From the NCBI GenBank assembly GCA_964553015.1, contig CAZKJE010000002.1:14175-78174 (forward strand): 64,000 bases of DNA, given 5' to 3'. Source of the stretch: an uncultured Candidatus Saccharibacteria bacterium. Its GTDB lineage: Bacteria > Patescibacteriota > Minisyncoccia > Phycocordibacterales > UBA9973. Shown here piece after piece: positions 3,077 through 60,448 of the stretch. The notes beneath the pieces were generated by a model. It had not been told where the DNA came from, made no database searches, and saw nothing but the letters and a program-made list of their open reading frames with translations. The position numbers were made by a program, and so were the translations under genes. The first letter of the stretch is position 1. Every line of letters begins with the position of its first letter.

Positions 3077-3090
3077 ATAAGATAGGAAAT

Positions 3091-3120
3091 CAAAAAATCC
3101 CCCGAATGGGGATTTTTTGA
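3091..3120. terminator. Bidirectional intrinsic terminator between lexA and hup
   Basis: AAAAAATCCCC-(loop)-GGGGATTTTTT hairpin flanked by an A-run and a T-run, so it can act on both strands. Confidence 0.7.
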
Positions 3121-3166
3121 TTTCCTAATTTCTCTCGAGAGAACCCCACTTGGCGGGGCAGGAATA

Positions 3167-6275: not shown

Positions 6276-7523
6276 GTGTCTAATGAAATACGTAAAAATA
6301 TGCCAAGAAAAATGATAAGTGTAGAAGGCAACATAGTAAATAAAGATAAAGTTTTCCGCGGAAGAATTGAAATTGATCAGAGCGGAATGATAGATAAAAT
6401 CGGCGAACCGAAAGGTGACGCCGATTTTATTTTTGAGGATGAATTAATTTTTCCCGGATTCATAGATCTGCATGTGCATGCGCGGGAAGATGCAAGCCAC
6501 ACGCAAGATTACAAAGAAGATTTTATCTCCTCGGGAGTTGCGGCGATAAGCGGCGGAGTGACAGCATTTGCAGAAATGCCGAACAATCCAGTACCGCCGA
6601 TTGATGATAAAAGTTACGCAGAAAAAAAAGAATTAACTAAGAAATCTCCAGTTCCAGTTTTACTTTATGCAGGCATCGGCCCTAAGACAAAACCGCTTTC
6701 ATCAAAAGTTCCGTACAAAGTTTTTATGGGTAAATCTGTCGGCGATCTTTTTTTTACAACACTGGAAGAATTAGAATCAGTAATAAAAAATTACAAGGGA
6801 CAATACGTGAGTTTCCACTGCGAGGATCCGGAAATTCTGGAAGAAAAAACTCATGAGTTAACTCATGAGTTACAGCGCCCCAGAGAAGCTGAAATTTCCG
6901 GAATAGATTTCGCGCTCAAATTAATAGAAAAATATAATATTTTTGGAAAAATTTGTCATGTATCTACGATAGGAGGAATACAAAAAATTATTGAAGCAAA
7001 AAAAAGAGGGGTAAATGTAACAGTAGAAGTAACTCCGCATCATTTGTATTTTGCGAAAGCAAATAAAAATTTACAAGTCAATCCGCCCATACGTGATGTA
7101 GAAGATTGTGCGGCTTTAATAAAACTTTTGAAACGAGGCGATATTGATTTTCTTGCTACCGACCATGCTCCGCACACAAAAGAAGAGAAGAAAAAAGGAG
7201 TTTCAGGCATGCCGCATTTAGATACTTACGGACCGTTTATCGCATGGCTTATAAAAGAACACGGTTTTACGCAGGAAGAAATTGCGAGAGTATGCGCATA
7301 TAATCCGGGTGTTTTTTTAAATAGTTTTATGCCTGAGAAATATGGAGAAACAAAAGAAGGCTACGTTGGCTCGCTTACAGTAATAAATATGAACAAGCCA
7401 GTAAGGATAAAAAAAGAAATGCTTAAAACGAAATGCGGCTGGTCGCCTTTTCTGGGGGTGACATTTCCGGGAAGCGTTACTATGACAATAGTAAAAGGAG
7501 AAATTTATGAAAACAGAAAATAG
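6276..7523 (+). CDS. pyrC: Dihydroorotase
   Basis: 415 aa. Amidohydrolase metal motifs DLHVHAR and ATDHAPH. First gene of the pyr cluster. The start is uncertain (GTG 6276 per track, or an internal ATG). Confidence 0.85.
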   Translation: MSNEIRKNMPRKMISVEGNIVNKDKVFRGRIEIDQSGMIDKIGEPKGDADFIFEDELIFPGFIDLHVHAREDASHTQDYKEDFISSGVAAISGGVTAFAEMPNNPVPPIDDKSYAEKKELTKKSPVPVLLYAGIGPKTKPLSSKVPYKVFMGKSVGDLFFTTLEELESVIKNYKGQYVSFHCEDPEILEEKTHELTHELQRPREAEISGIDFALKLIEKYNIFGKICHVSTIGGIQKIIEAKKRGVNVTVEVTPHHLYFAKANKNLQVNPPIRDVEDCAALIKLLKRGDIDFLATDHAPHTKEEKKKGVSGMPHLDTYGPFIAWLIKEHGFTQEEIARVCAYNPGVFLNSFMPEKYGETKEGYVGSLTVINMNKPVRIKKEMLKTKCGWSPFLGVTFPGSVTMTIVKGEIYENRK

Positions 7524-27158: not shown

Positions 27159-28439
27159 ATGAAAAAAGATTTCAAAAAAATTAATAATCAGTCCCTGCCT
27201 GCCGGCCGGCAGGGCGGAGCAGCGATGCTGATAGCCGTAGTTTTTTTTCTGTTTATTTCTTTAGCAATAATTTCCGGCCTCGTGTCGCCGTCTGTGCGCG
27301 AATTCAAAAATGCCAATGATGCGGTCAGATCGAGACAAAGTTTATTTTTGTCCGAATCGGGAACAGAGGACGCCTATTTTAGATTGAAAAATGCAAAAAC
27401 TATAAGCTCTCCGGTGGTGCTGGTTTTAAACGGTAATACTGCGACAACCACTATCACAGATTCCGGATATAACGAAAAAACTGTAACGGCGCTTGGAGAT
27501 GTTTCAGCGCGGCAGAGAAAAAGTGAAATTGTTCTGACCACGGGCGACGGGGTTTCTTTCAGCTATGGTATCCAGTCAGGGGTCGGCGGATTTGTTATAG
27601 GTAACGCTGTCGTGAATGGTAATGTATATTCAAACGGAAATATCACAGGGGCTAATGGCGCTACTATTACCGGTTCGGCTTTTGCCGCCGGAGCGACGGG
27701 GGTTATTGATAATATAGATGTGGGACAGGGAGGCATAGGGGACATAAAAGCGCATACTGTGAATGATTCTACTGCTGCCGGCAATTTATATTGCCAAGTT
27801 GGCTCGAACAATAATAAATCCTGCAATACATCTCAGGCTGATCCGGAAATAGCGCCGATGCCAATCACGGAAGAGATGATTAATAAATGGAAAGCAGATG
27901 CAGAACTTGGCGGAATTTTTACTGGAAACATGATTATATCCGAGCAGACGAGCCTAGGGCCGAAAAAAATTACAGGCAATTTGTCTATTGAGGCTGATGT
28001 AGTTATTACGGGTACTGTTTATGTAACAGGGAATATTACGACTAATAACGGCGCAGAGGTTTCTTTGAGCAGTTCTTATGGGGCTCTCGGCGGAATTATT
28101 GTTGCTGACGGAAGAGTAACTCTTTCCAATAACGTTAAATTTTTTGGATCTGGCACTGCAGGCACATACATATTATTAGTCACTACAAGCGCGTGCCCGA
28201 CGGACTGTTCAGGCTTGAATGCTCTGGAAATTTTAAACAACGTAGGCGCAATACTGGTGAATGCTCAAAATGGCACGGTGCACCTCAACAATAATGTTAC
28301 CCTGAACGAAGTTGTGGGAAATACAATTATTGTAGACAATAGCGCGGTGATAAATTATCTTTCGGGGCTTGCTAACCAAAATTTTTCTTCCGGACCTTCG
28401 GGAGGATGGAACATTGATAGCTGGAAGGAGGTGGAATAA
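27159..28439 (+). CDS. PilX-N-like pilus-associated protein with a G/N-rich beta-helix-like C-region
   Basis: 426 aa. GGAAMLIAVVFFLFISLAIISGLV resembles a PilX N-terminal anchor. It is followed by repetitive GN..NGN.. segments. Carries a GC palindrome at 27198..27213. Confidence 0.55.
   Translation: MKKDFKKINNQSLPAGRQGGAAMLIAVVFFLFISLAIISGLVSPSVREFKNANDAVRSRQSLFLSESGTEDAYFRLKNAKTISSPVVLVLNGNTATTTITDSGYNEKTVTALGDVSARQRKSEIVLTTGDGVSFSYGIQSGVGGFVIGNAVVNGNVYSNGNITGANGATITGSAFAAGATGVIDNIDVGQGGIGDIKAHTVNDSTAAGNLYCQVGSNNNKSCNTSQADPEIAPMPITEEMINKWKADAELGGIFTGNMIISEQTSLGPKKITGNLSIEADVVITGTVYVTGNITTNNGAEVSLSSSYGALGGIIVADGRVTLSNNVKFFGSGTAGTYILLVTTSACPTDCSGLNALEILNNVGAILVNAQNGTVHLNNNVTLNEVVGNTIIVDNSAVINYLSGLANQNFSSGPSGGWNIDSWKEVE
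27198..27213. repeat. Perfect 16-bp GC palindrome near the 5' end of the PilX-like gene
   Basis: CCTGCCGGCCGGCAGG, encoding LPAGRQG just before the membrane anchor. Confidence 0.55.
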
Positions 28440-30350: not shown

Positions 30351-30693
30351 TCTTCTGTGCGTTTCCTGCTAAATCTTTTTCGTCGCCGACGGTTTCCGGC
30401 CAGACCCAGATATGCGCATGATGTATTTCTTCGCCGTATACTTGCGAGCGGACTATGTCCGCATTAAAAGCTTTCTTTTGCGCGAGCGCAATTTTTCTGG
30501 CAACTTCGAAATATTCTCCTATGTTTGGCACTTCCCATACCCAGCGGAAATGTTTCTTTGGAATGATCTGCACGTGCCCCGGAGCTATAGGCCGTATATC
30601 TAGAAAGGCTAAAAAATTGCTGTCTTCATATATCTTTGTAGCAGGTATCTCACCTTTTACAATTTTGCAGAAAATACAATTTTGTTCATTCAT
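30334..30693 (-). CDS. HIT-family nucleotide hydrolase/transferase
   Basis: 119 aa. Histidine triad EIHHAHIWVWP and HVQIIPKKH. Its 3' end overlaps the pgk 3' end by 17 nt (convergent). Confidence 0.85.
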   Translation of the reverse strand: MNEQNCIFCKIVKGEIPATKIYEDSNFLAFLDIRPIAPGHVQIIPKKHFRWVWEVPNIGEYFEVARKIALAQKKAFNADIVRSQVYGEEIHHAHIWVWPETVGDEKDLAGNAQKIIEAL

Positions 30694-30713
30694 AAGAATA
30701 TTATATCAAATTA

Positions 30714-30722
30714 TGCTAGAAT
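30714..30722 (+). promoter_or_regulatory. Extended -10 (TGcTAGAAT) 7 nt upstream of the recJ ATG
   Basis: The hexamer ends at 30722 and the ATG is at 30730. No SD is present. Confidence 0.5.
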
Positions 30723-30729
30723 TTCACCT

Positions 30730-32388
30730 ATGCATCAGTATGGCGAGCTGCTAAGGAGTCTTTTAGAGAAAAGGGGAATTTCTGATCTGGAAAAAGCGGA
30801 TATTTTCCTGAACCCCAGCTATGAACGCGATTTGCATGACCCTTTTTTAATGCGCGACATGGAGCGTGCCTGTGTTCGACTGCTTGAAGCCATTGAAAAA
30901 AAAGAGAAAATAGTGATATATGCAGACTACGACTGCGATGGCATACCGGGGGCTGTAATATTAAACGACCTGTTTAAATTACTGAATTATAAAAACTATG
31001 AAGTATATATACCACAGAGAAATTCTGAAGGCTATGGACTAAACATCGAAGCCATAGATAAGTTTAGAGATTCTGGCATCAAACTTATAATAACTATAGA
31101 CTTGGGGATCACGGCAGTAGAAGAAGTTGCTAAAGCAAAAACTTACGGCATTGATACGATAATAACCGATCACCATATTCCTCATGCGGTTCTGCCGGAG
31201 GCGTTTGCAATTCTAAATCCAAAAGTAGATGATTATCCGGAAAAAATGCTCTGTGGGGCGGGGGTAGCTTTTAAGTTTGCGCAGGGAATGATAAAGATGG
31301 CAAATGGTGATTTTGCCTTTAAAATAAAGCCCGGCGCCGAAAAATGGATGCTAGATATGGCAGGGCTCGCCACTCTTTCCGATATGGTGCCGTTAACGGG
31401 GGAGAACAGAGCTATTGCATATTTCGGAATGAAAGTTATGAAAAAATCTCCGCGCCCGGGTCTGCAAAAACTGCTTGCAAAAATGAATATTGATCAGCGA
31501 TATTTGTCTGAAGACGATATCGGTTTTATGGTTACCCCGAGATTAAACGCGGCCTCGCGCATGGATGATCCGATGCGGGCGTACGAACTTCTTTCCACTG
31601 ATGATGAGGTAGAAGCCGGAAGACTTGCTAGCCATCTGTCAAAAATAAACGACGACAGAAAAAGTTTGGTAAAAGGAATCATGCGGGAAGTTAATAAACA
31701 CTTTGAGGAGAGAAAGGAGACGGATGTGATAGTGATCGGGAATCCGGGGTGGCGCGTGGGCATACTCGGGCTTGTGGCCGGTAAAATATGCGACGAATAC
31801 GAAAAACCGGTTTTCGTGTGGGGGAAAGATGAAAATGACTGCATAAAAGGCTCCTGCCGAAGCGATGGATCGGTATCTGTGGTGGAGCTTATGACCGAAG
31901 CCAAAGATTCGTTCGTAGATTTTGGAGGACACGAGCTTGCCGGAGGATTTACAGTACGGAATGAAAAGATCCATTTTCTGGAAGAAGCATTGTCTGTATC
32001 TTTTCAAAAAGTAAAAAGGGCAGTAGCGGAAAATAAAGCTCTGCATGATGTTAAAACGGAATTAGGCGCGGTCAATATAAAAAACTGGAGAGATATAGAA
32101 AAAATGTCGCCCTTCGGACTCGCTAATCATAAGCCGGTTTTTCTATTTGAGAAAGCAAAAATTGAAAAAATAAAAAAATTCGGCAAAAATGGTTCCGGTG
32201 AGCATTTGGAAATAGTTTTTTCAGACGAAAGCAGCAAAAAAGCCACAGCCGTTTCTTTCTTTTCTGGGATTGATTCATTTGGCAAGCTATTGGAGGAAGC
32301 AAAAAATGTAAATGTTCTGGCGACTTTTGATCTGTCTAGGTTTAGAGGCAGAGAGGAGCTTCGTTTGAGAATTGTTGATATAATATAG
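30730..32388 (+). CDS. recJ: Single-stranded-DNA-specific exonuclease RecJ
   Basis: Start moved to ATG 30730. DHH motifs (DYDCDGI, ITDHH) and DHHA1 motif GGHELAGG. Confidence 0.9.
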   Translation: MHQYGELLRSLLEKRGISDLEKADIFLNPSYERDLHDPFLMRDMERACVRLLEAIEKKEKIVIYADYDCDGIPGAVILNDLFKLLNYKNYEVYIPQRNSEGYGLNIEAIDKFRDSGIKLIITIDLGITAVEEVAKAKTYGIDTIITDHHIPHAVLPEAFAILNPKVDDYPEKMLCGAGVAFKFAQGMIKMANGDFAFKIKPGAEKWMLDMAGLATLSDMVPLTGENRAIAYFGMKVMKKSPRPGLQKLLAKMNIDQRYLSEDDIGFMVTPRLNAASRMDDPMRAYELLSTDDEVEAGRLASHLSKINDDRKSLVKGIMREVNKHFEERKETDVIVIGNPGWRVGILGLVAGKICDEYEKPVFVWGKDENDCIKGSCRSDGSVSVVELMTEAKDSFVDFGGHELAGGFTVRNEKIHFLEEALSVSFQKVKRAVAENKALHDVKTELGAVNIKNWRDIEKMSPFGLANHKPVFLFEKAKIEKIKKFGKNGSGEHLEIVFSDESSKKATAVSFFSGIDSFGKLLEEAKNVNVLATFDLSRFRGREELRLRIVDII

Positions 32389-32390
32389 AA

Positions 32391-32882
32391 GTGACAGAGA
32401 AAACTATTAAAATTTATACTGACGGTTCAGCCAGAGGAAATCCGGGAAAAGCAGGCTGGGGAGCTGTTTTTCTTTTAGGCGATAAAGTTTTTGAAATGGG
32501 CGGGCGGTCCGATCACGCGACAAATAATCAGATGGAGCTCACTGCGCCAATAGAAGCGCTTAAATATTTAAAAAAATCCCCTAGGCAAGGTCTAGGGGAA
32601 AAAATTACACAGGGGAGTTCTGTGCAAATCGTGTCTGACTCAAAGTATGTTATTTTAGGTATTACCGAGTGGATCTTAAACTGGCAGAAAAATAATTGGC
32701 GAAATGCCGCAAAAAAGCCTGTTATGAATCGAGAACTTTGGGAAGAGCTGTACAAGCTTACGGAAGAATTAAAAACAACATGGGAATATGTAAAAGGCCA
32801 CAACGGCGACAAATATAATGACCGAGCAGATGAAATAGCGACAAGCTTTGCAGACAATGAGCCAGTGGAGTTGAAAAAATAA
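32391..32882 (+). CDS. rnhA: Ribonuclease HI
   Basis: 163 aa, GTG start. DGSARGNPG, NNQMEL, SDSKYV, KGHNGDKYNDRADEIA. Contains an in-frame palindrome at 32578..32598. Confidence 0.9.
   Translation: MTEKTIKIYTDGSARGNPGKAGWGAVFLLGDKVFEMGGRSDHATNNQMELTAPIEALKYLKKSPRQGLGEKITQGSSVQIVSDSKYVILGITEWILNWQKNNWRNAAKKPVMNRELWEELYKLTEELKTTWEYVKGHNGDKYNDRADEIATSFADNEPVELKK
32578..32598. repeat. GC-rich palindromic element, in frame in rnhA
   Basis: CCCCTAG-GCAAGGT-CTAGGGG (perfect 7-bp stem) encoding SPRQGLG. The ALK-to-VQIVSDS spacing is about 15 aa longer than in E. coli RNase HI as recalled from memory. Confidence 0.65.
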
Positions 32883-32890
32883 ATATTTCA

Positions 32891-34456
32891 ATGCAAGATA
32901 AAATTTTTCATACGGTTTGTTTTGGATTTTTATTCGGAGTGCTGTTGCGCTCCTTCTTTTTTATAAGTATATATTTTTCGCTATTAGCCGGAATTATAAC
33001 GCTCGCTTTAATTTTATTTTTTACTCTTATATCCTTCGGCCATAGCCCTACCCTCGGGCGTAGTCCTACGGGCGAGCCGGGTGAGGCAAAAAGCAAATGG
33101 GGAGTTCTGATATCTGTTTTTATTTTTGCCTTTAGTTTTGGAGTTTTTAGATTTGGTCTTGCAGATGTGCCAAATCCTGTCGCCTTTGAATCTCAAGTAG
33201 GCGAAAAAATAACTCTCTCTGGGGAAATTGTAGATGAGTCCAGTATTAGAGAAAATAATCAGCAATTGATTATCGAAACAGAAAAAGAAGCGAGTATAGA
33301 TAGTAAGACAGGAATTTTATTATCAGTAAGTTTGAGTGAGAGTTATAAATACGGTGATAAGATAAATTTTACAGGAACTCTGAAAAAACCGGAAAATTTT
33401 ATCACGGATACCGGCAAAGAGTTTGATTATATAAATTATCTGCGCAAGGACGGCATTTTATACGTCATGAGTTATCCCAAAGTTGAAATTATTTCGCGCG
33501 GCAATGGTAATTTAATAAAAAAATATTTATTTCTCATAAAAGAAAAATTTCTAAATAAAGTGAATTTAGTTATAGCAAGTCCGGAAAATTTATTAATGGG
33601 TGGATTGATCTTGGGGGAGAAATCATCTTTTAGCAAAGATCTCCGGCAGGATTTCGTAGACACCGGCACGATACACATCGTCGCTCTGTCTGGCTACAAT
33701 ATCACCATAGTCGCTGAATGGTTTATGAAACTTTTCGCTCAACTGCCATACCTGTCTAAAAATTTTGGCATAGGCATGGGTGTTTTTGCTATTATATTAT
33801 TTATTTTGATGACGGGCGGAAGTTCGACGGCAGTCCGCGCCGGCATTATGGCAACTCTCGCTCTCGTGGCTAGGGCGACGGGAAGAAATTATGATGTGGC
33901 GCGGGCATTAATTCTTGCCGGAGTCGGCATGATACTTATTAATCCATTTATTTTAGCCTTTGATGTTTCTTTCGAACTTTCTTTTATCGCAACCGTTGCC
34001 GTGATATTCCTAGCGCCAAGAATAGAAAAATATTTTCTATGGGTCACCGAAAGTTTTGGCCTGCGGGACATAGTGTCTGTAACTTGTGCTGCATACATTT
34101 TTGTCTTCCCTTTTATTCTATACAAAATGGGCAATTTATCTCTCGTAGCTCTGCCGGCAAACATTTTAATACTTCCCTTTATTCCGTTTACTATGATGCT
34201 TGGATTTCTGACTGGTATCGCCGGTCTTGTTTTGCCGATATTGTCCCTGCCCATTGGCTATATATCTTATCTTTTTTTACATTATGAGCTATGGGTTATT
34301 AAATTTTTTGCAAATTTGCCGTTTGCGTCATTTTCTTTTCCGAATTTCCCGCTTTTCCTCACTTTGCTAATTTATGCCTATTTTGTCTACTATCTTTTCG
34401 GCAGAAATATAAAAGATTTTTTTAATATGGATAAAGACGAAATAGAAATATTGTAA
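32891..34456 (+). CDS. comEC: ComEC/Rec2 DNA-uptake channel, membrane part
   Basis: 521 aa polytopic protein. DUF4131-like N-part and a Competence domain (TGTIHIVALSGYNITIV). Contains an imperfect GC palindrome at 33053..33076. Confidence 0.8.
   Translation: MQDKIFHTVCFGFLFGVLLRSFFFISIYFSLLAGIITLALILFFTLISFGHSPTLGRSPTGEPGEAKSKWGVLISVFIFAFSFGVFRFGLADVPNPVAFESQVGEKITLSGEIVDESSIRENNQQLIIETEKEASIDSKTGILLSVSLSESYKYGDKINFTGTLKKPENFITDTGKEFDYINYLRKDGILYVMSYPKVEIISRGNGNLIKKYLFLIKEKFLNKVNLVIASPENLLMGGLILGEKSSFSKDLRQDFVDTGTIHIVALSGYNITIVAEWFMKLFAQLPYLSKNFGIGMGVFAIILFILMTGGSSTAVRAGIMATLALVARATGRNYDVARALILAGVGMILINPFILAFDVSFELSFIATVAVIFLAPRIEKYFLWVTESFGLRDIVSVTCAAYIFVFPFILYKMGNLSLVALPANILILPFIPFTMMLGFLTGIAGLVLPILSLPIGYISYLFLHYELWVIKFFANLPFASFSFPNFPLFLTLLIYAYFVYYLFGRNIKDFFNMDKDEIEIL
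33053..33076. repeat. GC-rich imperfect palindrome, in frame in comEC
   Basis: CTCGGGCGTAG-tc-CTACGGGCGAG (9 of 11 positions pair), within the peptide HSPTLGRSPTGEPGEA between TM segments. Confidence 0.5.
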
Positions 34457-39070: not shown

Positions 39071-39145
39071 TTGATATTAGTAGCAAAATAGACTTATGAA
39101 ACTACAAGAAGGATAATAGCGTAACTAAACCATAAAGTCAATTTG

Positions 39146-39535
39146 TGGAGATGGGGGAAATTGAATCCCCGTGCAGAAGGTTTTTGCAAAGAAGTCTACA
39201 TGCGTAGCGCGCTTTTTGTTTTAAATTAAAAAATTATGAAACGCGCCAAATATTTTTTAACCGAGTTCTTTTGTTTTGCGAGAGCGTCAGAACAGGCGTT
39301 CAAGCTATCCCGATAATGTTATGCCTCGTCTTATATATCGGAAGTCTATAAGAGAGACACCACCTCAGGCTTACGCGAAAGATGGAGCGAAAGCGAGCGC
39401 ATTACCGAAGTAAGGCGAACGCATTGCTGTGAAAGCTGATTTTGCAATTAGCTGTTGAACGAATTTTTACGAGATTACGTTCATTCTCGGCATGCATCAA
39501 TAACAAATGGCCAACTGTCTATGCCTTGCATCCCC
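39146..39535 (-). ncRNA. ssrA: tmRNA (SsrA)
   Basis: The 5' GGGGATG pairs with the 3' CATCTCC, including the G3:U pair. T-arm GGGGA-TTCAATT-TCCCC, discriminator A, and CCA not encoded. Immediately downstream of smpB. The candidate tag frame ends ...GNALAFAPSFA-TAA, but the resume codon was not determined. Confidence 0.85.
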
Positions 39536-39546
39536 ATATTTACTTT

Positions 39547-39993
39547 TCAACGTCCTTTAAAATCTCGGCGAATCTCGCGATCAGTGTCACGCTTTTTTAG
39601 AGTTTCGCGTTTATCAAATTTTTTCTTGCCTTTCACCAGGGCAATTTCCAATTTGATTTTCCTGCCTTTATTATACACTGAAATCGGCACTATTGTCAAA
39701 CTTTTATTCTTCTCGCTGCCTTGTAGCTCATTAATTTCTTTTTTGGTCAGCAAAAGTTTCCTATTGCGCAGAGGATCATAATCTTTTGGCGCATTTTTTG
39801 CCTGATATGGAGGTATGTTGGCATTGATCAGGTATGCTTCGCCGCCGCGTATAATTACAAAAGCCCCCTCGAGCGACATCTGACCCGTTCGTACAGCTTT
39901 TACTTCTGTTCCCAAAAGCTCAATACCGGTTTCGTGCTTTTCTAGGAATTCATAATTGAATCGCGCTTTGCGGTTTTCTGTATAACTAGCCAT
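39547..39993 (-). CDS. smpB: SsrA-binding protein SmpB
   Basis: 148 aa. NRKARFNYEF N-terminus and a basic C-terminal tail. Confidence 0.95.
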   Translation of the reverse strand: MASYTENRKARFNYEFLEKHETGIELLGTEVKAVRTGQMSLEGAFVIIRGGEAYLINANIPPYQAKNAPKDYDPLRNRKLLLTKKEINELQGSEKNKSLTIVPISVYNKGRKIKLEIALVKGKKKFDKRETLKKRDTDREIRRDFKGR

Positions 39994-43323: not shown

Positions 43324-43998
43324 ATGGCGAGAAAACAAGATAAACAAAGCGTTTTGGCTATGCGCAAGAGAGGAATGAGCTACAGCCAGATCAAAGGGAA
43401 AATAAAAATAAGCAAAAGCACTTTGAGTGTCTGGCTTAAAGATTTACCACTCGATGAAAAACGGATAAGAGAATTAAGAGACAATAGCCCTATTCGTATT
43501 GAAAAATTCAGAAATACAATGCGAGCAAAAAAAGAGATGAGACTTTATGAGGTATATAAAAAAGTCGCAAATGATATTTGTGATCTCTCAAAAAGAGATT
43601 TATTTTTAACAGGCTTGTTCTTATATTGGGGAGAAGGCACGAAATCACAAAATTCTTTAGTTGCCCTCACAAATACAAATCCAGCCATGGTTAAGTTTTT
43701 CATACAATGGCTAAAATTGTTTGGAGTAAAAAGCAAAGATTTGAAAATTAAACTACATTTATACTCCGATATGAAAATTAAAGAAAGTCTTGATTTTTGG
43801 TCAAAAGAGCTTAATATTCCGATAAGCCAGTTTTATAAGCCGTATGTTAAGAAAAATACTCTCAAATCTATCTCGTATAAAAATGGCTTTGGAAAAGGAA
43901 CATGTAGTGTTATATTTGGGAGTAGAGATCTTTGGGAATATATAACAATGGGATTGAAATATATTTCTGAAATTAGTAATGAAAATTTCCGCCCCTAG
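43324..43998 (+). CDS. HTH plus LAGLIDADG-like (homing-endonuclease-like) protein
   Basis: 224 aa. N-terminal resolvase-type HTH (RGMSYSQIKGKIKISKSTLSVWLK). A single LAGLIDADG-like motif (LTGLFLYWGEGTK). The last 10 nt, including the TAG stop, lie inside the tRNA gene. Confidence 0.45.
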   Translation: MARKQDKQSVLAMRKRGMSYSQIKGKIKISKSTLSVWLKDLPLDEKRIRELRDNSPIRIEKFRNTMRAKKEMRLYEVYKKVANDICDLSKRDLFLTGLFLYWGEGTKSQNSLVALTNTNPAMVKFFIQWLKLFGVKSKDLKIKLHLYSDMKIKESLDFWSKELNIPISQFYKPYVKKNTLKSISYKNGFGKGTCSVIFGSRDLWEYITMGLKYISEISNENFRP

Positions 43999-44061
43999 CT
44001 CAGTTGGTAGAGCAATCCGCTTATACCGGATCGGTCCTTGGTTCGAGTCCAAGGGGGCGGA
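43989..44061 (+). tRNA. tRNA-Ile with anticodon UAU
   Basis: Cloverleaf read by hand: acceptor CCGCCCC/GGGGCGG, D-arm GCTC-AGTTGGTA-GAGC, anticodon arm ATCCG-CTTATAC-CGGAT, variable loop CGGTC, T-arm CTTGG-TTCGAGT-CCAAG, discriminator A. CCA is not encoded. Confidence 0.8.
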
Positions 44062-44063
44062 CA

Positions 44064-44624
44064 ATGAAAGATAATTTGAACGAAAAATTAATTTCTGTTC
44101 CCCAACCACCCGTATTCCATACCTCAAGCCGTTTTTTATACGACGAATGGGTGCGCCTGAGTAAGCGTCTGGAAATAGAAGAGTTAAACGAAGAGGAGCG
44201 TGTTATAATAGAACAAAAGAGATCTGCGCTATTTAAAGAATATGAAGTTGCGTCTAATCGTGAGCAAGCCGAACCCGAAGCCATAGGCTTAGAATTTCTA
44301 GAAAACTTGAAATACGCTATTAAACAGAAAGACAAAGCTTTGTTACGAAAAACAATCCTTATGATTCAAGAGTTTGTTAATCGCCCTAACTTTTATAAAG
44401 ATTTAGATTTTATCAGATTTGCTGATGATGAATTAGATAAGATTTTAAATAATCGAATTGCCGCTATTATTGTCGGATCAGGTACTTATGGTCAAAGAAT
44501 TTTGATTTCTTCCAGCCGCTTGCGCATGAGCGGAGATAGACACGGACAGGAGTATAGAAACCGTTTTGCTAAACTTTTCGGTCTCAAATTCGATCCTAAC
44601 ATTGATTTAAGTATTGAATTTTAA
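44064..44624 (+). CDS. Hypothetical protein
   Basis: Start moved to ATG 44064, 3 nt after the tRNA, because the track start lies inside the tRNA. 186 aa with no recognised family. Confidence 0.5.
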   Translation: MKDNLNEKLISVPQPPVFHTSSRFLYDEWVRLSKRLEIEELNEEERVIIEQKRSALFKEYEVASNREQAEPEAIGLEFLENLKYAIKQKDKALLRKTILMIQEFVNRPNFYKDLDFIRFADDELDKILNNRIAAIIVGSGTYGQRILISSSRLRMSGDRHGQEYRNRFAKLFGLKFDPNIDLSIEF

Positions 44625-56644: not shown

Positions 56645-56920
56645 GAGTCAAATTGCACGCCTGAGTAGTTTGAAAGGAAATCCAAATGAGCTCTGAGTCA
56701 CGGTCACCCAATTTCCCAAGGCAGATGAAGCGGTATTGGTGGATGCGAAGGACACCACCGCCTCCATACCCCGTTCTCCGGCGCTTGCGCCTAGTGTTTC
56801 AGAACCACAACAGCGCAGTGTCACTTTCGGTCAAGGGAGTGATTCAGAGACATCTCGTGCGAGGCTAATCACTCCGCAGACCCGCGGGCACACCCGAGTG
56901 CCCGCTTCGTTTTTTCTTTT
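56645..56920 (+). ncRNA. GC-rich structured RNA or leader of unknown class upstream of ileS
   Basis: A non-coding stretch, visibly GC-richer than its flanks. It contains several strong local helices, for example GGAGTGATT/AATCACTCC and GGTGG/CCACC. It ends in the intrinsic terminator at 56884..56920. Confidence 0.3.
56884..56920 (+). terminator. Intrinsic terminator preceding the ileS promoter
   Basis: GCGGGCAC-ACCCGA-GTGCCCGC followed by TTCGTTTTTTCTTTT. Confidence 0.7.
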
Positions 56921-56947: not shown

Positions 56948-59900
56948 ATGCAGAAGCATGAAAACAATAACTCCAAATCAGAAGCAGCTTTGCGCGAAGA
57001 GCGAGTTTTGGAATTTTGGAAAGAAAATAAGATATTTAAAAAGTCGCTGGAGAAAAAATCCCCAAAGGGAGAATTTGTGTTTTATGATGGTCCAGTTACG
57101 GCAAACTCAAAGCCAGTTTTGCATACAATGCTACCTTTTTCTTTCAAAGATGTTATTCCCAGATATAAAACTATGCGCGGATATCATGTACGAAGGAAAG
57201 GCGGTTGGGATACGCATGGGCTTCCGGTAGAACTGCAAATAGAAAAAAAACTTGGGTTCAATTCAAAAGCAGATATTGAAAATTATGGTATTGCAGCTTT
57301 CAATAAATTATGTAAGGACAGTGTTTGGGAGTACGTTGGGGCATGGAAAAGTTTTACCGAACGAATGGGCTACTGGGCAGATCAAGATAATGCATATGTC
57401 ACATATTATAATAATTATATTGAATCTGTTTGGAATATAGTAAAAAAAATAAATGAGCAGAATCTGCTTTATAAAGATTACAAAGTGGTGCCGTGGTGCC
57501 CGAGGTGCGGTACAGCACTGTCTTCGCATGAGCTCGCACAGGGATACGAAGATGTAAAAGATCTGTCAGTGTATGTAAAGTTTAAGATAACTACGCCAGT
57601 GCAGGAAAATTCTGCCGCTTTACCCGCAAGCGGGCTCCGACACGGACAAAATTTTCCCGCATTGGCTCCGCAGTATATCCTCGCCTGGACGACGACGCCG
57701 TGGACCCTGCCCGGGAACGTTGCCTTAGCCGTCGGCGAAAATATTGATTATGTAAAGGTAAAGAGTGGAGAAGAGTTTTATATTCTCGCCAAAGAGAAGC
57801 TTTCAATCATAACCGAACCATATGAGATAGTGGAAGAGGTCAAGGGCGCGGGGCTAGTAGGGCTCGAATACGAGCCGTTGTATCCATATCTTGCAAATAC
57901 GGTTTCGGATACAGAAAAACCAAAATTAGAAAAGGCATACAAGGTGCACAAGGCAAACTTTGTGACCACAGATGACGGCACCGGCGTGGTGCATACGGCT
58001 GTGATGTATGGGCAAGATGACTTTATGCTCGGAACAGAAGTCGGCCTGCCGAAGCACCACCTCGTAGGTCTCGATGGCAAATTTTTAGCAGGCACAGGTA
58101 TTTTTGAAGGACGATTTGTAAAAGATGAAGAAGTCGCCGTAGATATCATTAAAGACTTGGCGCACCGCGGGCTTCTTTTCAAAAAAGAAAAATACGAGCA
58201 CTCGTATCCGCACTGCTGGCGCTGTAAAACTCCGCTCATATATTACGCGCGGGATTCTTGGTATATCCGGATGTCTGATCCTAGAATAAAAGCCGAAATG
58301 ATAAAGGAGAATAAAGAAATAAACTGGGAGCCGGAGCATATTCGCGACGGGCGGTTTGGGCAGTGGCTGGAAGAAATAAAAGACTGGGCAATATCCCGCG
58401 AACGGTACTGGGGCACGCCGCTGCCGGTCTGGGCCTGCGAAGCGTGTAAAAAAATTGAAGTAGTAGGAAGCGTAGAAGATCTAAAAAGTAGAACCAAAAA
58501 GTCTGGCAATAAATATTTTGTGATGCGGCACGGCGAGGCTGTCGATAACGCCAAGCATTTGGGTGATCCGAAAGGCGATCCAAATAATCACCTGACTGAT
58601 AAAGGGAAAAAAGAAATAATTCTTACCGCAGAAGAATTAAAAAATAAAAAAATTGATTTTATCTTTACGTCTTCTTTTCTGCGAACCAAAGAAACAGCAG
58701 AGGTCTTGAGAAAAGAACTAGGTTTGGAGCAAGAAAAAGTAATAGTTGAAGATAGATTGCATGAACACAATGAGGGAGACACTAAGCTCGTTCGCAAAAG
58801 GATGGCCGACTTTATTTATGAAATAGAAAAAAATTACGAAAATAAAAATATCTTAATAATTTCGCACGGAAATCCTATCTGGATCCTGCAGAAAACCGCT
58901 TTGGGCTTGTCTATAAATAATTTTACAGAAGGCGAGATGCTGCATACCGGCGAAGTCAAAGAATTAGATTTTATACCGCTACCGCATAATGAAAATTATG
59001 AGCTTGATCTGCACAAGCCTTATATAGATGAAATAAATCTTGTTTGTTCATGTGGTGGAAAATTAACACGCACGAAAGAAGTCATGGACGTGTGGTTTGA
59101 TTCGGGAGGCATGTCTTTTGCGCAGGATCATTACCCTTTCGATAACGCTTCCGGTAAATCTTTTGACGGCAAAGAACTTTTATATCCGGCGGATTTTATT
59201 TCAGAGGGCATAGATCAGACGCGCGGATGGTTTTACACCTTGCATGCTGTTGGAATTCTCTTGGGGCGGGGCAAGGCTTACAAAAACGTAATCTGCCTTG
59301 GCCATCTTCTCGACGCTAAGGGCAAAAAAATGTCCAAATCTCTCGGCAACGTCGTCGAGCCGTTTCTTGCGATGGATACATATGGCGTGGATACTTTGCG
59401 TTTGTGGATGTATTCCATAAATCAGCCGGGCGAATCCAAGAATTTTGATGAGAAAACAGTAGCGCTTCTTTCTCAGCAGATTTTTGGCTTGCTTTACAAT
59501 GTGCTTGCGTTTTATGAACTTTATCGCGATGTTTCGCTAGAGCCTAGAGCCTATGGCCTAAAGCCCAGCAATATTTTAGATAAATGGATCTTGGCGCGTC
59601 TAGATGAGTTGACAGAGCTTGCAACCAAAAATTTAGATAACTACAAATTGCTGGAGCCAGTGCGGGGCATGAGAGACTTTATCGGCGATCTTTCTACTTG
59701 GTATTTGCGCCGTTCGCGCGACAGGATAAAATCCTCCTCCGCACAAGGCTCCGGTGGAACAAGGGAAGGAGATGAAGCGAAGGAAACTCTGTACTATGTG
59801 CTAAAAACCTTGGCAAAACTCATGGCTCCGCTCGCGCCGTTTGCCGCTGAAGACATCTGGCTTAAGTTAAAAAATGAAGATGATGAAGAAAGCGTGCATT

Positions 59901-60448
59901 TGGCGAGCTGGCCGGAAGTAAAAAAGACATCTTTTATCTCCAAGTTGCTTAAAAATGATCCAAGCAAAAAAATAATTGAAAATATGGAGAGCGTCAGAAG
60001 AGTAGTCACACTCGGACTCGAAGCTCGACAGAAAACCGGAATAAAAGTCCGCCAGCCTCTTAATCAATTACGAATTAAAAATTACGAATTAGGAATTGAG
60101 TATGCAGACTTGATTAGAGAAGAGCTGAATGTCAGAGAAGTTATTTTTGATAATTCTATTGAAGGCGAGGTGTGGCTCGATATAAGAATAAACGAAGAGC
60201 TCAAAGCTGAAGGGGATTACAGGGAGTTTGTCCGCGCGCTGCAGGATATGAGAAAGAAAACCGGACTGACGCCGAGCGACGTGGTCTCTGTTACTTTTGA
60301 AACAAACAAAGCAGGCAAGGAACTTATTAAAAAATTCGAAGCTGAAATGAAAAAAACAGTGCTTGTCTCTACGATAGAATTTTCGGAAAATGAAGGAGAA
60401 AAAATAAAAATCGACAATCTTCACTTCAGGATAAAAATTGATAAATAA
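56948..60448 (+). CDS. ileS: Isoleucine--tRNA ligase with a nested histidine-phosphatase domain
   Basis: 1166 aa. IleRS hallmarks: WDTHGLPVE, editing-domain [10 protein letters not shown] and [13 protein letters not shown], KMSKS. An extra domain of about 163 aa lies at residues 522-684. Confidence 0.9.
   Translation: [1166 protein letters not shown]
58511..58999 (+). other. Histidine-phosphatase (PGAM-like) domain inserted within ileS
   Basis: Ordered motifs [43 protein letters not shown] and LIISHGNPI. Flanked by IleRS CxxC (ACEACKK) and CxC (VCSCGG) segments. Confidence 0.75.

What the first reader, a model, noticed from the sequence alone, without database searches (positions are those of the whole stretch)
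32578..32598. Perfect 7-bp-stem palindrome inserted in frame in RNase HI
CCCCTAG-GCAAGGT-CTAGGGG encodes SPRQGLG within ...EALKYLKKSPRQGLGEKITQGSSVQIVSDSKY. E. coli RNase HI, as recalled from memory, reads ...EALKEHCEVILSTDSQY here. The local region is therefore about 15 residues longer, centred on the palindrome. This is another housekeeping enzyme carrying a GC hairpin in an otherwise AT-rich gene.
Basis: partly seen in the sequence, partly recalled or inferred. Interest (0 to 1): 0.5.

Follow-up and report, generated by a model that had tools for sequence, protein, structure and literature searches.

The report
Small palindromic repeat inside RNase HI
A 23-base hairpin-forming DNA repeat, one copy of a family scattered through the genes of these small-genome (CPR/Nomurabacteria-type) bacteria, sits in frame in a surface loop of an otherwise intact RNase HI gene and adds eight probably harmless amino acids; it is a REP/RPE-like 'passenger' palindrome of a known general kind, in a lineage where I found no earlier description.

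Summary
The palindrome is real: TCCCCTAG-GCAAGGT-CTAGGGGA at 32577-32599, an 8-bp perfect stem (10 pairs as RNA). It lies in frame in an RNase HI gene with an intact catalytic tetrad and encodes SPRQGLGE at the start of a disordered loop between helix αA and strand β4.

The loop is 12 residues longer than in solved RNase HI structures. It is 8 residues (24 nt) longer than in the two nearest relatives, which lack the palindrome.

This is not a one-off. Of 80 Nomurabacteria-type orthologs, 31 carry a perfect hairpin of at least 7 bp at this loop, against 3.8% elsewhere in the gene. These fall into several unrelated sequence families.

The window's copy belongs to family "F1" (core CTAGG-CAAGR-YCTAG). 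F1 also occurs in frame in other genes, at a stop codon, and in intergenic DNA. A second family of 51 nt sits at different sites in two genomes that are 85% identical, which shows mobility. Copies also decay through GC-to-AT changes.

The stems end sharply and show no wobble bias. There is no Rfam match, no REP tag and no nearby transposase gene.

Best reading: a neutral, untagged, REP/RPE-like miniature palindromic element tolerated in a permissive loop. How it spreads is unknown. This is a new variant of a known kind and of moderate interest.

The parts
32577..32599 (+). The palindromic element: TCCCCTAG (5' arm), GCAAGGT (spacer), CTAGGGGA (3' arm). It is a member of family F1, core CTAGG-CAAGR-YCTAG, and the window copy differs from the consensus core at 2 of 15 positions.
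   Evidence: sequence, uniqueness, 8-bp stem; folding, z = -3.4 and -2.8; family membership.
32574..32600 (+). Indel relative to the nearest relatives. MAFFT places a single 24-nt gap at window 32574-32597. blastn places a 22-nt insertion starting at 32577. Codons 63-70 (32577-32600) encode SPRQGLGE.
   Evidence: DNA alignments with L081 and L082; protein alignment, relatives 8 aa shorter.
32391..32882 (+). Host gene rnhA (RNase HI, 163 aa, GTG start). The catalytic residues D11, E49, D83 and D147 are conserved.
   Evidence: Pfam 3.4e-39; PDB matches down to 1e-35; these four residues are invariant in 34 orthologs.
32577..32618 (+). Codons 63-76: an extended, low-confidence surface loop between helix αA (residues 45-62) and strand β4 (77-82). 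The element encodes its first 8 residues.
   Evidence: AlphaFold2 model, pLDDT below 60 for residues 61-70 and below 50 for 65-67; 12-residue gap in solved structures.
32570..32576 (+). An A7 run from the Lys-Lys codons immediately 5' of the stem. It creates a T-tail on the minus strand and an A_AAA_AAA heptamer. Judged incidental.
   Evidence: terminator-like call on the minus strand; not conserved among the hairpin-bearing orthologs.
9425..9444 (+). Same class, different family (C-run type): CCTCCCCT-TGGC-AGGGGAGG, in frame in carB (PPLGRGG), lying within a clean 10-residue insertion relative to solved CPS structures.
13261..13302 (-). Same class, C-run type: two adjacent hairpins (13261-13279 and 13282-13302) in frame in the trigger-factor gene, in the linker between the Trigger_N and Trigger_C domains. 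The second has the same CAAGA loop on the coding strand as family F1.
27193..27214 (+). Same class, third type: CCCTGCC-TGCCGGCC-GGCAGGG near the N-terminus of an uncharacterised 426-aa ORF (SLPAGRQG). Related stems (ACCTGCCT-GCGC-AGGCAGGT) recur in L005 and L087, and a related indel (CCTGC-GCAG-GCAGG) is polymorphic between L098 and L116.

Best explanation
The palindrome is one copy of a dispersed family of very short (about 23-33 nt) REP/RPE-like palindromic DNA elements that live in Nomurabacteria-type CPR genomes. I call this family F1; its core is CTAGG-CAAGR-YCTAG with a variable but self-complementary outer stem. This copy sits in the only reading frame of the element that has no TAG stop. 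Its length keeps the frame, and it lies in a surface turn at the opposite end of helix αA from the active site. It is therefore translated as eight extra loop residues and tolerated.

It does nothing for RNase HI. It is a neutral or selfish passenger. Shown: the element class is dispersed, at least one sister family moves between sites, copies sit only in permissive hypervariable loops, and copies decay or are absent in close relatives. Inferred: the copy-and-paste step itself. No transposase, target duplication or REP tag was found, and filled sites often replace resident codons rather than simply adding to them. I therefore favour a polymerase template-switch or short-patch templated-repair route over classical transposition, but with low confidence.
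For: The hairpin is real and non-random. It lies in frame in an intact rnhA and in a disordered αA-β4 loop.

The nearest relatives lack 24 nt that coincide with it. The same loop carries perfect hairpins of 7 bp or more in 31 of 80 CPR orthologs, against 3.8% of same-length windows elsewhere in the gene. These belong to at least five unrelated sequence families.

The F1 core recurs at non-homologous places. It occurs in frame in an MBL-fold gene with about 33 nt shared including flanks (peptide KxTARQxLAGI), as inverted pairs in the ComEC-like gene of at least 7 loci, at a stop codon (L005:701), and in intergenic DNA (L126:640).

The sister C-run family is a 51-nt unit found at rnhA site 1 in L126 and at site 2 in L003. 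The two copies are 47/51 identical although the genomes are only about 85% identical. It also occurs in RecJ in a different reading frame.

Perfect hairpins with stems of 8 bp or more are about 4-fold enriched in 387 kb of CPR DNA (171 against 41). Stems end abruptly and show no sense-strand G.T excess (23 G.T against 29 A.C), so they are DNA palindromes and do not look like evolving RNA helices.

Copies decay: L098 has a perfect F1 copy, whereas L116 and L091 have the same length with six GC-to-AT changes. Intragenic REPs and RPEs with the same behaviour are documented (PMC3733652; PMC10969869).
Against: Only one F1 copy is present in the 64-kb window, so copy number in this genome is unknown. 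The rnhA tree is too poorly resolved to say whether the window lineage gained the element or L081/L082 lost it. L081 retains CCTAGAGGGGA, which resembles the 3' arm, so a partial deletion or a local origin is not excluded.

No mobilising enzyme, target-site duplication or defined termini were found for F1. Strong covariation in the F1 stem (8 of 12 pairs change on both sides, 0 of 500 shuffles reach this) is also what selection for a functional hairpin would produce. I explain it instead by distinct source sub-families and/or arm homogenisation.
Confidence: 0.7

Rival explanations
1. Local, non-mobile origin. The hairpin was created in place by intra-strand template switching during replication, in which a quasi-palindrome is converted to a perfect one, within a loop that tolerates any sequence. 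Repeated arm homogenisation then kept it perfect.
For: The arms are perfect with sharp boundaries and no wobble bias. Stem pairs flip on both sides without intermediates. There are possible spacer inversions, cgg against ccg (L117 vs L114, L113 vs L107). L081 carries CCTAGAGGGGA, which resembles one arm. Template switching is documented to create and homogenise hairpins, including in coding DNA (PMC8794818; PMC8604942). Some filled sites replace resident codons without changing length, for example L005 and L092.
Against: The same core and flanks occur at non-homologous sites and in other genes. The same family is present in many scattered orthologs. The cgg/ccg difference equals a single point change, so it is weak evidence. 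F2 and F4 stems bear no resemblance to the ancestral loop sequence. Copies do decay (L116, L091), so homogenisation is not universal.
Confidence: 0.12
2. A functional nucleic-acid hairpin kept by selection. Candidates include an mRNA structure that modulates rnhA translation or decay, an RNase III-type processing site, or an intrinsic terminator for antisense transcripts.
For: Hairpins are enriched about 10-fold at this site. Covariation is strong. The RNA fold is stable. On the minus strand the hairpin followed by TTTTTTT is the best terminator-like site in the region.
Against: Unrelated hairpin sequences occupy the site, and 49 of 80 orthologs have none, including the two nearest relatives. 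There is no G.U enrichment, and pairing stops dead at the stem ends. Decayed copies exist. There is no Rfam match. Among the orthologs' 6-nt upstream flanks, only the window and L157 are A-rich enough to give the minus-strand T-tail. The same elements sit in many unrelated genes and in both orientations.
Confidence: 0.1
3. A protein-level adaptation. The extra loop residues are selected for RNase HI function or interactions in CPR bacteria, and the palindromy is a by-product.
For: CPR orthologs have a slightly longer baseline loop (22-23 residues against 19-20). The insertion preserves the reading frame.
Against: The loop peptides are unrelated between families (RQDL, MSKxxFD, TQATPVY, YPYP..RGRS). 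The model gives a disordered loop. The nearest relatives lack it. The same DNA element is read in different frames in different genes. A perfect 8-bp palindrome is not expected from selection on the peptide.
Confidence: 0.03
4. A programmed -1 ribosomal frameshift cassette: the slippery A_AAA_AAA heptamer followed by a stimulatory hairpin, with a -1-frame TAG inside the stem giving a truncated product.
For: The sequence shows A_AAA_AAA at 32570-32576 directly before the stem, and the -1 frame reads AAA AAA ATC CCC TAG.
Against: The spacer is 0 nt, whereas established frameshift sites place the structure about 5-9 nt downstream. Only 5 of 31 hairpin-bearing orthologs have any slippery heptamer upstream, and at varying distances. 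The truncated product would lack two catalytic residues.
Confidence: 0.01

Closest known systems
Intragenic REPs (repetitive extragenic palindromes found inside ORFs; Di Nocera et al. 2013, PMC3733652)
   Same: Both are 20-40-bp palindromic stem-loops (REP stems 5-13 bp) forming multi-family dispersed repeats. Some units lie wholly inside ORFs of known proteins, notably replication and repair genes; here they lie in rnhA and recJ. They sometimes supply a TAG stop to the flanking ORF, as the F1 copy at L005:701 does. They often occur as inverted dimers, as in the ComEC pair, and are argued to be neutral in flexible loops.
   Different: No unpaired GTAG or CGTC tag is present (1 and 1 of 62 hairpins, equal to chance). 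The elements are not preferentially extragenic (86% lie in ORFs, in DNA that is about 96% open frame). No RAYT gene was seen. The host phylum is Patescibacteria/CPR, which is not among the lineages I saw named for tagged REPs in that paper's abstract. The outer stems vary between copies around a conserved centre.
Rickettsia palindromic elements (RPEs)
   Same: Both are palindromic repeats inserted in frame in unrelated housekeeping genes of a reduced genome. They are translated and predicted to be compatible with the protein fold (PMC10969869).
   Different: RPEs are about 100-150 bp and encode a conserved peptide of tens of residues. The elements here are 23-51 nt (8-17 residues). The sequences are unrelated and the host phylum differs.
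Bacterial MITEs
   Same: Both are non-autonomous, hairpin-forming and dispersed, and occasionally give in-frame fusions.
   Different: MITEs are usually 70-500 bp, AT-rich and intergenic, with terminal inverted repeats plus target-site duplications. Here the elements are GC-rich and several-fold shorter, no target duplication is detectable, and many sites are replacements.
Hairpins made and homogenised by replication template switching (PMC8794818; PMC8604942)
   Same: Both show perfect arms, short spacers, two-sided stem changes without wobble intermediates, multi-codon replacements in coding DNA, and possible spacer inversion.
   Different: Template switching alone copies neighbouring sequence. 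It does not explain the same 23-51-nt unit appearing at non-homologous sites, unless the switch is to an ectopic template.
Coding palindromes and GC clusters of mitochondrial genomes (Nematomorpha, PMC6649704; yeast GC clusters, from my own knowledge)
   Same: Both are perfect inverted repeats embedded in translated genes of an AT-rich, reduced genome.
   Different: In Nematomorpha both arms encode conserved protein regions, and the repeats reach 284 bp. Here the elements sit only in non-conserved loops and are tiny.

Membership tests
REP superfamilies (GTAG- or CGTC-tagged) | Small palindromic stem-loop of 20-40 bp | tested here: met
   The element is 23 nt with an 8-bp stem and 7-nt spacer. 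Other F1 copies are 19-33 nt.
REP superfamilies (GTAG- or CGTC-tagged) | Unpaired GTAG or CGTC motif at one end of the hairpin | tested here: not met
   1 of 62 GC-rich hairpins has GTAG adjacent and 1 of 62 has CGTC, against 1.2 and 1.0 expected. One of 17 aligned F1 copies contains GTAG anywhere in its 33 nt, and the window copy has neither tag.
REP superfamilies (GTAG- or CGTC-tagged) | Many dispersed copies per genome, mostly extragenic | tested here: inconclusive
   The family is dispersed across genes and genomes, but only one F1 copy lies in the 64-kb window. Overall, 86% of hairpins lie in ORFs. No complete genome was available.
REP superfamilies (GTAG- or CGTC-tagged) | Associated RAYT (Y1/HUH tyrosine transposase) gene in the genome | not testable with these tools
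   No transposase domain was found among about 50 window ORFs.
Rickettsia palindromic elements (RPE) | In-frame insertion in ORFs of functional housekeeping genes, at sites compatible with the fold | tested here: met
   The element is in frame in rnhA with an intact catalytic tetrad and lies in a disordered surface loop. The same holds for CarB.
Rickettsia palindromic elements (RPE) | Length of about 100-150 bp with a family-specific conserved peptide, and sequence similarity to RPE-1 to RPE-10 | tested here: not met
   The element is 23-24 nt (8 codons), and the largest related family here is 51 nt. Sequence similarity to RPEs was not searched directly.
MITE | Terminal inverted repeats flanked by a direct target-site duplication | tested here: inconclusive
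   The whole element is an inverted repeat. Comparing filled with empty sites shows no consistent duplication, and codons are often replaced. The window copy is flanked by A-runs that are also ordinary Lys codons.
Template-switch-generated hairpin | One arm pre-exists at the locus and the other is its reverse-complement copy | tested here: inconclusive
   L081 has CCTAGAGGGGA resembling the 3' arm, but the F1 core is shared with non-homologous sites.
Template-switch-generated hairpin | Arm homogenisation (two-sided changes, no wobble intermediates) and spacer inversion | tested here: inconclusive
   There are 26 two-sided cells against 7.6 in shuffles, with few one-sided changes. The cgg/ccg spacers are compatible with inversion but equal a single substitution.
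Known structured RNA (Rfam) | Match to a curated covariance model | tested here: not met
   The window-wide gathering-threshold scan finds only a tmRNA and one tRNA.
Intrinsic terminator | GC-rich hairpin followed by a T-run on the transcribed strand, conserved in relatives | tested here: not met
   On the plus strand the tail is A-rich. On the minus strand a T7 tail exists, but the A-rich upstream flank that produces it is seen only in the window and L157 among the orthologs' hairpins.

The most novel reading that the evidence does not exclude
Nomurabacteria-type CPR genomes may harbour currently active families of the smallest known coding-region mobile elements: 23-51-nt perfect palindromes. 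These would spread between permissive protein loops without a dedicated transposase, for example by ectopic template switching at hairpins or through recombination of DNA taken up by natural transformation. They would then be a continuing source of new surface loops in essential enzymes. The repeated occupation of the same loop by unrelated families would reflect a real insertion hot spot, in addition to selection filtering out harmful insertions.
Probability: 0.2. Interest if true: 0.65.

Novelty: new variant of a known kind. Interest (0 to 1): 0.45.

Why it matters
If the reading is right, it matters in four ways.

- **Reach of the phenomenon.** 'Selfish palindromes in protein-coding genes', known from Rickettsia RPEs and intragenic REPs, would extend to the Candidate Phyla Radiation. 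The elements here are several-fold smaller and lack the REP tags.
- **Practical marker.** Perfect short GC-rich palindromes mark lineage-specific, non-functional loop insertions in CPR proteins. This helps annotation, structure modelling and alignment trimming for phylogenies of these divergent organisms.
- **A small natural experiment.** One enzyme loop is occupied by at least five unrelated hairpin families, alongside empty, perfect and decayed states in close relatives. This makes element gain, decay and loss, and the possible role of template switching, directly countable once complete genomes or population data are used.
- **RNase HI itself.** The enzyme looks ordinary and functional.

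Tried and rejected
1. **Source record.** Exact look-ups of the window's RNase HI found no contig or name.
2. **RNA-level structure.** I tested for a sense-strand G.T excess at stem borders of 153 in-CDS hairpins. There is none (23 G.T against 29 A.C), and pairing stops at the stem ends.
3. **Gene tree.** I tried to decide gain versus loss, but the 150-aa NJ tree is star-like and uninformative.
4. **Target-site duplications and defined ends.** Filled-versus-empty comparisons in rnhA site 1, rnhA site 2 and RecJ show replacements plus expansion and no consistent duplication.
5. **TTAC (IS608-type target) at element starts.** It is 14 against 7.1 expected, not significant after multiple testing. 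The enriched flank words are C-runs, reflecting nested outer arms.
6. **REP tags GTAG/CGTC.** Absent.
7. **Spacer inversion as a template-switch signature.** cgg against ccg is seen twice, but this equals one point mutation.
8. **Antisense terminator.** The T-tail is not conserved.
9. **-1 frameshift cassette.** The spacer is 0 nt and the arrangement is not conserved.
10. **DNA-uptake-sequence idea.** The core occurs once in 64 kb, far too rarely.
11. **Peptide probe.** I searched 5.8 billion proteins with the translated 51-nt element to list host proteins.
12. **ComEC N-terminal GC-rich patch (33040-33110).** No significant fold (z = +1.06).
13. **Transposase or HUH gene in the window.** None among about 50 ORFs.
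14. **Literature.** Searches combining CPR, Patescibacteria or Parcubacteria with palindromes or hairpins in coding genes found no prior description.
Full report
**1. The observation**

The reported sequence is present at exactly the stated place: CCCCTAG (32578-84), GCAAGGT (32585-91), CTAGGGG (32592-98). The pattern occurs once in the window, and none of 100 dinucleotide-preserving shuffles produced it. The perfect stem is one pair longer than reported (TCCCCTAG/CTAGGGGA, 32577-32599).

Folded as RNA, the segment forms 10 pairs. An inner G.U and C-G close an AAG triloop, giving -16.7 kcal/mol, z = -3.4, with no shuffle folding as well. As single-stranded DNA it gives -7.9 kcal/mol, z = -2.8.

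It lies in frame in ORF 32391-32882 (+), between recJ (30682-32388) and a comEC-like gene (32891-34456). The ORF matches Pfam RNase_H at 3.4e-39 and solved RNase HI chains down to 1e-35. Codons 63-70 read SPRQGLGE.

**2. The insertion at protein level**

HMMER alignments to E. coli RNase HI and to PDB 3h08 both open a 12-residue gap between ...EALKxxK and the β4 strand. The excess is 12 residues, not about 15, and the palindrome encodes the first 8 of them.

The four catalytic carboxylates correspond to D11, E49, D83 and D147 here. All four are invariant in an alignment of 34 close orthologs, so the gene looks functional.

An AlphaFold2 model (mean pLDDT 80, pTM 0.81) gives helix 45-62, an unstructured low-confidence loop 63-76, and strand 77-82. 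From the established RNase HI topology, E48 (E. coli numbering) sits at the N-terminal end of αA and D70 at the C-terminal end of β4. The αA-β4 turn is therefore at the far end from the active site. That last step is inference from known structures and was not measured on the model.

**3. Who the organism is, and what its relatives have**

The closest proteins are annotated Candidatus Nomurabacteria, Paceibacterota or Parcubacteria. The window is about 41% G+C and almost wholly housekeeping genes, with no transposase domain among about 50 ORFs.

I fetched DNA for about 90 Nomurabacteria-type rnhA loci, together with non-CPR orthologs.

The two nearest relatives (L081 and L082; mean column identity 89% in the three-way DNA alignment) lack 24 nt that coincide with the palindrome. 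MAFFT gives a single gap at window 32574-32597, and blastn a 22-nt insertion at 32577. L081 keeps a CCTAGAGGGGA that resembles the 3' arm, so I cannot tell an insertion in the window lineage from a deletion in the sister lineage. The 150-residue gene tree is too star-like to help.

**4. The key result: this loop is a hairpin hot spot**

Between the conserved NNQMEL and SDSKY motifs, non-CPR orthologs have 19-20 residues and no such hairpins. CPR orthologs have 21-35 residues in the fetched loci and up to 36 among the 120 closest proteins.

Among 80 unique CPR orthologs:

- 31 have a perfect stem of 7 bp or more in this segment, 24 have 8 bp or more, and 17 have 9 bp or more.
- Only 3.8% of same-length windows elsewhere in the same genes have such a stem.
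- 25 of 36 loops of 24 residues or more have one, against 6 of 44 shorter loops.

The hairpins fall into unrelated sequence families:

- **F1:** ..CTAGG-CAAGA-CCTAG.. (peptides RQDL/RQGL). The window belongs here, with 2 mismatches to the 15-nt core.
- **F2:** ATGTCAAAG-n3-5-CTTTGACAT (MSKxxFD).
- **F3:** ATACACAGGC-AAC-GCCTGTGTAT.
- **F4:** CCTCCCCCTA-CAG-TAGGGGGAGG (YPYP..SRGRS).
- **F5:** CCACAGGT-CGG-ACCTGTGG.
- Several singletons.

All are in frame. Among the 120 closest proteins, 19 have F1-type peptides, 5 an LPRLGK-type degenerate version, 6 F2, 3 F3 and 3 F4.

**5. The elements are dispersed, and at least one family moves**

The F1 core is not confined to rnhA. It occurs:

- in frame in an MBL-fold ORF (L005:6220), where about 33 nt including flanks match the rnhA copy of L159 (K[Q/K]TARQ[G/D]LAGI in two unrelated proteins);
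- as an inverted pair about 23 nt apart in the comEC-like gene of at least 7 loci;
- at the end of an ORF, where its TAG is the stop codon (L005:701);
- in an intergenic region (L126:640).

The C-run hairpin is the centre of a 51-nt nested palindrome (TACCCCYACCCWACCTCCCCCTACAGTAGGGGGAGGAGYAAGRAGGGGGTA). This unit is found at two different rnhA sites and in RecJ, where its 5' part is read in a different frame.

L003 and L126 are about 85% identical over 4.4 kb. L126 has this unit at the β2-β3 turn, whereas L003 has it at the αA-β4 turn. The two copies are 47/51 identical. L126's αA-β4 site holds an F2 hairpin instead, and L003's β2-β3 site is empty. This is an insertion-site polymorphism between close relatives.

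RecJ and ComEC have their own hypervariable loops that collect these elements. The window's copies of both genes are empty there.

In 387 kb of CPR DNA, perfect hairpins (stem of 8 bp or more, loop 3-8) number 171 against about 41 in block shuffles. In non-CPR loci the figures are 88 against 43. Their 5' flanks are enriched in C-runs, consistent with nested outer arms.

**6. DNA palindrome or RNA structure?**

At the borders of 153 in-CDS hairpins, G.T (23) does not exceed A.C (29). Watson-Crick pairing just outside the stems (0.16-0.22) is no higher than background (0.24). The palindromes are sharply bounded and show no strand-specific wobble, unlike conserved RNA helices.

In a gapless alignment of 17 F1 copies, 8 of 12 stem pairs change on both sides: 26 such cells against 7.6 in shuffles, with none of 500 shuffles reaching the observed value. 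One-sided changes are rare. The outer stem columns played no part in choosing the copies.

Two readings fit this: distinct source sub-families that are each perfect palindromes, or arm homogenisation by template switching, as documented in PMC8794818 and PMC8604942. Sub-families do recur at non-homologous sites. The ACG-YTAGG..CCTAA-CGCAGA type is found both in rnhA and in the intergenic region of L126.

Copies also decay. L098 has a perfect F1 stem, while its relatives L116 and L091 have the same length with six GC-to-AT differences and broken pairing. There is no Rfam match in the window apart from a tmRNA and one tRNA.

**7. Other copies in the window**

- carB has CCTCCCCT-TGGC-AGGGGAGG (9425-9444), lying within a clean 10-residue insertion relative to solved CPS structures.
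- The trigger-factor gene has two adjacent C-run hairpins (13261-13302) in the linker between its N- and C-terminal domains. One has the same CAAGA loop as F1.
- An uncharacterised ORF has CCCTGCC-TGCCGGCC-GGCAGGG (27193-27214), related to a stem type that is polymorphic between L098 and L116.

These are the same class as the rnhA copy but different sequence families.

**8. Mechanism, and how sure I am**

Shown:

- The element is a dispersed DNA palindrome.
- It is in frame and stop-free. F1 has TAG in two of its three frames, so only the RQDL frame is usable, and one copy's TAG serves as a real stop.
- It sits in a disordered surface loop of an intact enzyme.
- Sister elements change sites between close relatives.
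- Copies decay or are absent in neighbours.

Inferred:

- It is a neutral or selfish passenger with no role in RNase HI.
- It spreads by a copy-and-paste step.

I found no transposase, no REP tag (GTAG and CGTC at chance level), no significant TTAC or other target word and no target duplication. Several filled sites replace resident codons, some without changing length. I therefore lean towards polymerase template switching to an ectopic hairpin, or short-patch templated repair, over classical transposition. This step is a hypothesis.

I put 0.7 on 'dispersed REP/RPE-like passenger element'. The rivals are purely local template-switch origin (0.12), a selected functional hairpin including an antisense terminator (0.10; searches show the T-tail is not conserved), a protein-level adaptation (0.03) and a -1 frameshift cassette (0.01; spacer 0 nt, not conserved).

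**9. Comparison with what is known**

The closest kind is the intragenic REP (PMC3733652). These are 20-40-bp palindromes, some wholly inside ORFs and notably in replication and repair genes. They sometimes donate a TAG stop, often occur as inverted dimers, and are argued to be neutral in loops.

The elements here behave the same way, but they fail the defining GTAG/CGTC tag test and are not preferentially extragenic. So I do not file them in those superfamilies.

Rickettsia RPEs share the in-frame lifestyle but are about 100-150 bp. MITEs are longer, AT-rich and bounded by target duplications. Nematomorpha mitochondrial coding palindromes are much longer and encode conserved regions.

Searches of the paper library found no description of such elements in CPR bacteria. 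This is absence of evidence in an incomplete library.

**10. Verdict**

The feature is a new variant of a known kind: very small, untagged REP/RPE-like palindromes in the coding regions of CPR genomes. The single copy in rnhA is itself ordinary.

Interest is 0.45. It is a useful and fairly striking comparative pattern, with one loop holding five hairpin families and showing filled, empty and decayed states. But the general phenomenon is established elsewhere, and no function is indicated.

Noticed in passing
window 56948-60448 (+): The 1166-aa class-I tRNA synthetase (isoleucyl-type by its Pfam domains) has a histidine-phosphatase (His_Phos_1) domain at residues 524-611, inserted inside the catalytic tRNA-synt_1 domain.
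   Followed up: no
window 56884-56905 (+): The GC-rich hairpin GCGGGCAC-ACCCGA-GTGCCCGC is followed by TTCGTTTTTT, just upstream of the synthetase gene. It looks like an intrinsic terminator or attenuator, not a coding-loop element. No T-box or other Rfam family was found there.
   Followed up: partly
window 6848-6871 (+), inside the amidohydrolase ORF 6276-7523: AACTCATGAGTT occurs twice in tandem. The unit is its own reverse complement, so this is a 24-bp perfect palindrome with no spacer inside a coding region.
   Followed up: no
L005:2549, L084:357, L130:1350, L147:2617, L135:2582, L008:2591/2626, L117:452/482, L129:2555; window recJ 30682-32388: RecJ orthologs have their own hypervariable loop (about residue 480 of 610) that holds C-run palindromic elements in about 10 lineages. 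The window's RecJ is 'empty' there (...KVKRAVAENKALHDVK...).
   Followed up: partly
L092:1594-1636, L130:3846-3888, also L008, L105, L146, L149, L157; window comEC-like gene 32891-34456: The ComEC-like gene of many relatives carries an inverted pair of F1-like cores (AAGGTCTTGCCTT ... AAGGCAAGACCTT; peptide PQGLALGSFKARPF), resembling a REP dimer. The window's gene lacks this segment.
   Followed up: partly
window 33040-33110 (+), ComEC-like N-terminus: There is a local GC-rich patch encoding GHSPTLGRSPTGEPGEAK between predicted membrane segments. It has no significant secondary structure (z = +1.06) and may be a decayed element or simply a Gly/Pro-rich loop.
   Followed up: partly
rnhA β2-β3 turn in L113:721, L126:3101, L129:3101, L143:716 (window equivalent about 32460-32490): RNase HI has a second insertion site that holds the 51-nt C-run element or related hairpins in some genomes. 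The window and 104 of the 112 closest proteins in which this segment could be measured have the short 10-residue form.
   Followed up: partly
window 3083-3127 and 13847-13880: There are long perfect hairpins in intergenic positions: a 20-bp stem after the S24-peptidase/LexA-like gene, and a 16-bp stem next to the trigger-factor gene. They are probably terminators and are distinct from the coding-loop elements.
   Followed up: no
window 16949-18109 (-), NusA: The NusA N-terminal domain match spans residues 6-155 for a 119-position profile, so it carries about 30 extra residues. This may be another lineage-specific loop insertion. It was not checked for palindromes.
   Followed up: no
window 39143-39535 (-) and 39547-39993 (-): A tmRNA gene (Rfam 119.6 bits) lies immediately downstream of smpB on the same strand. 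A tRNA at 43989-44061 (+) overlaps the mechanical ORF 44004-44624, which is therefore probably not a gene.
   Followed up: no
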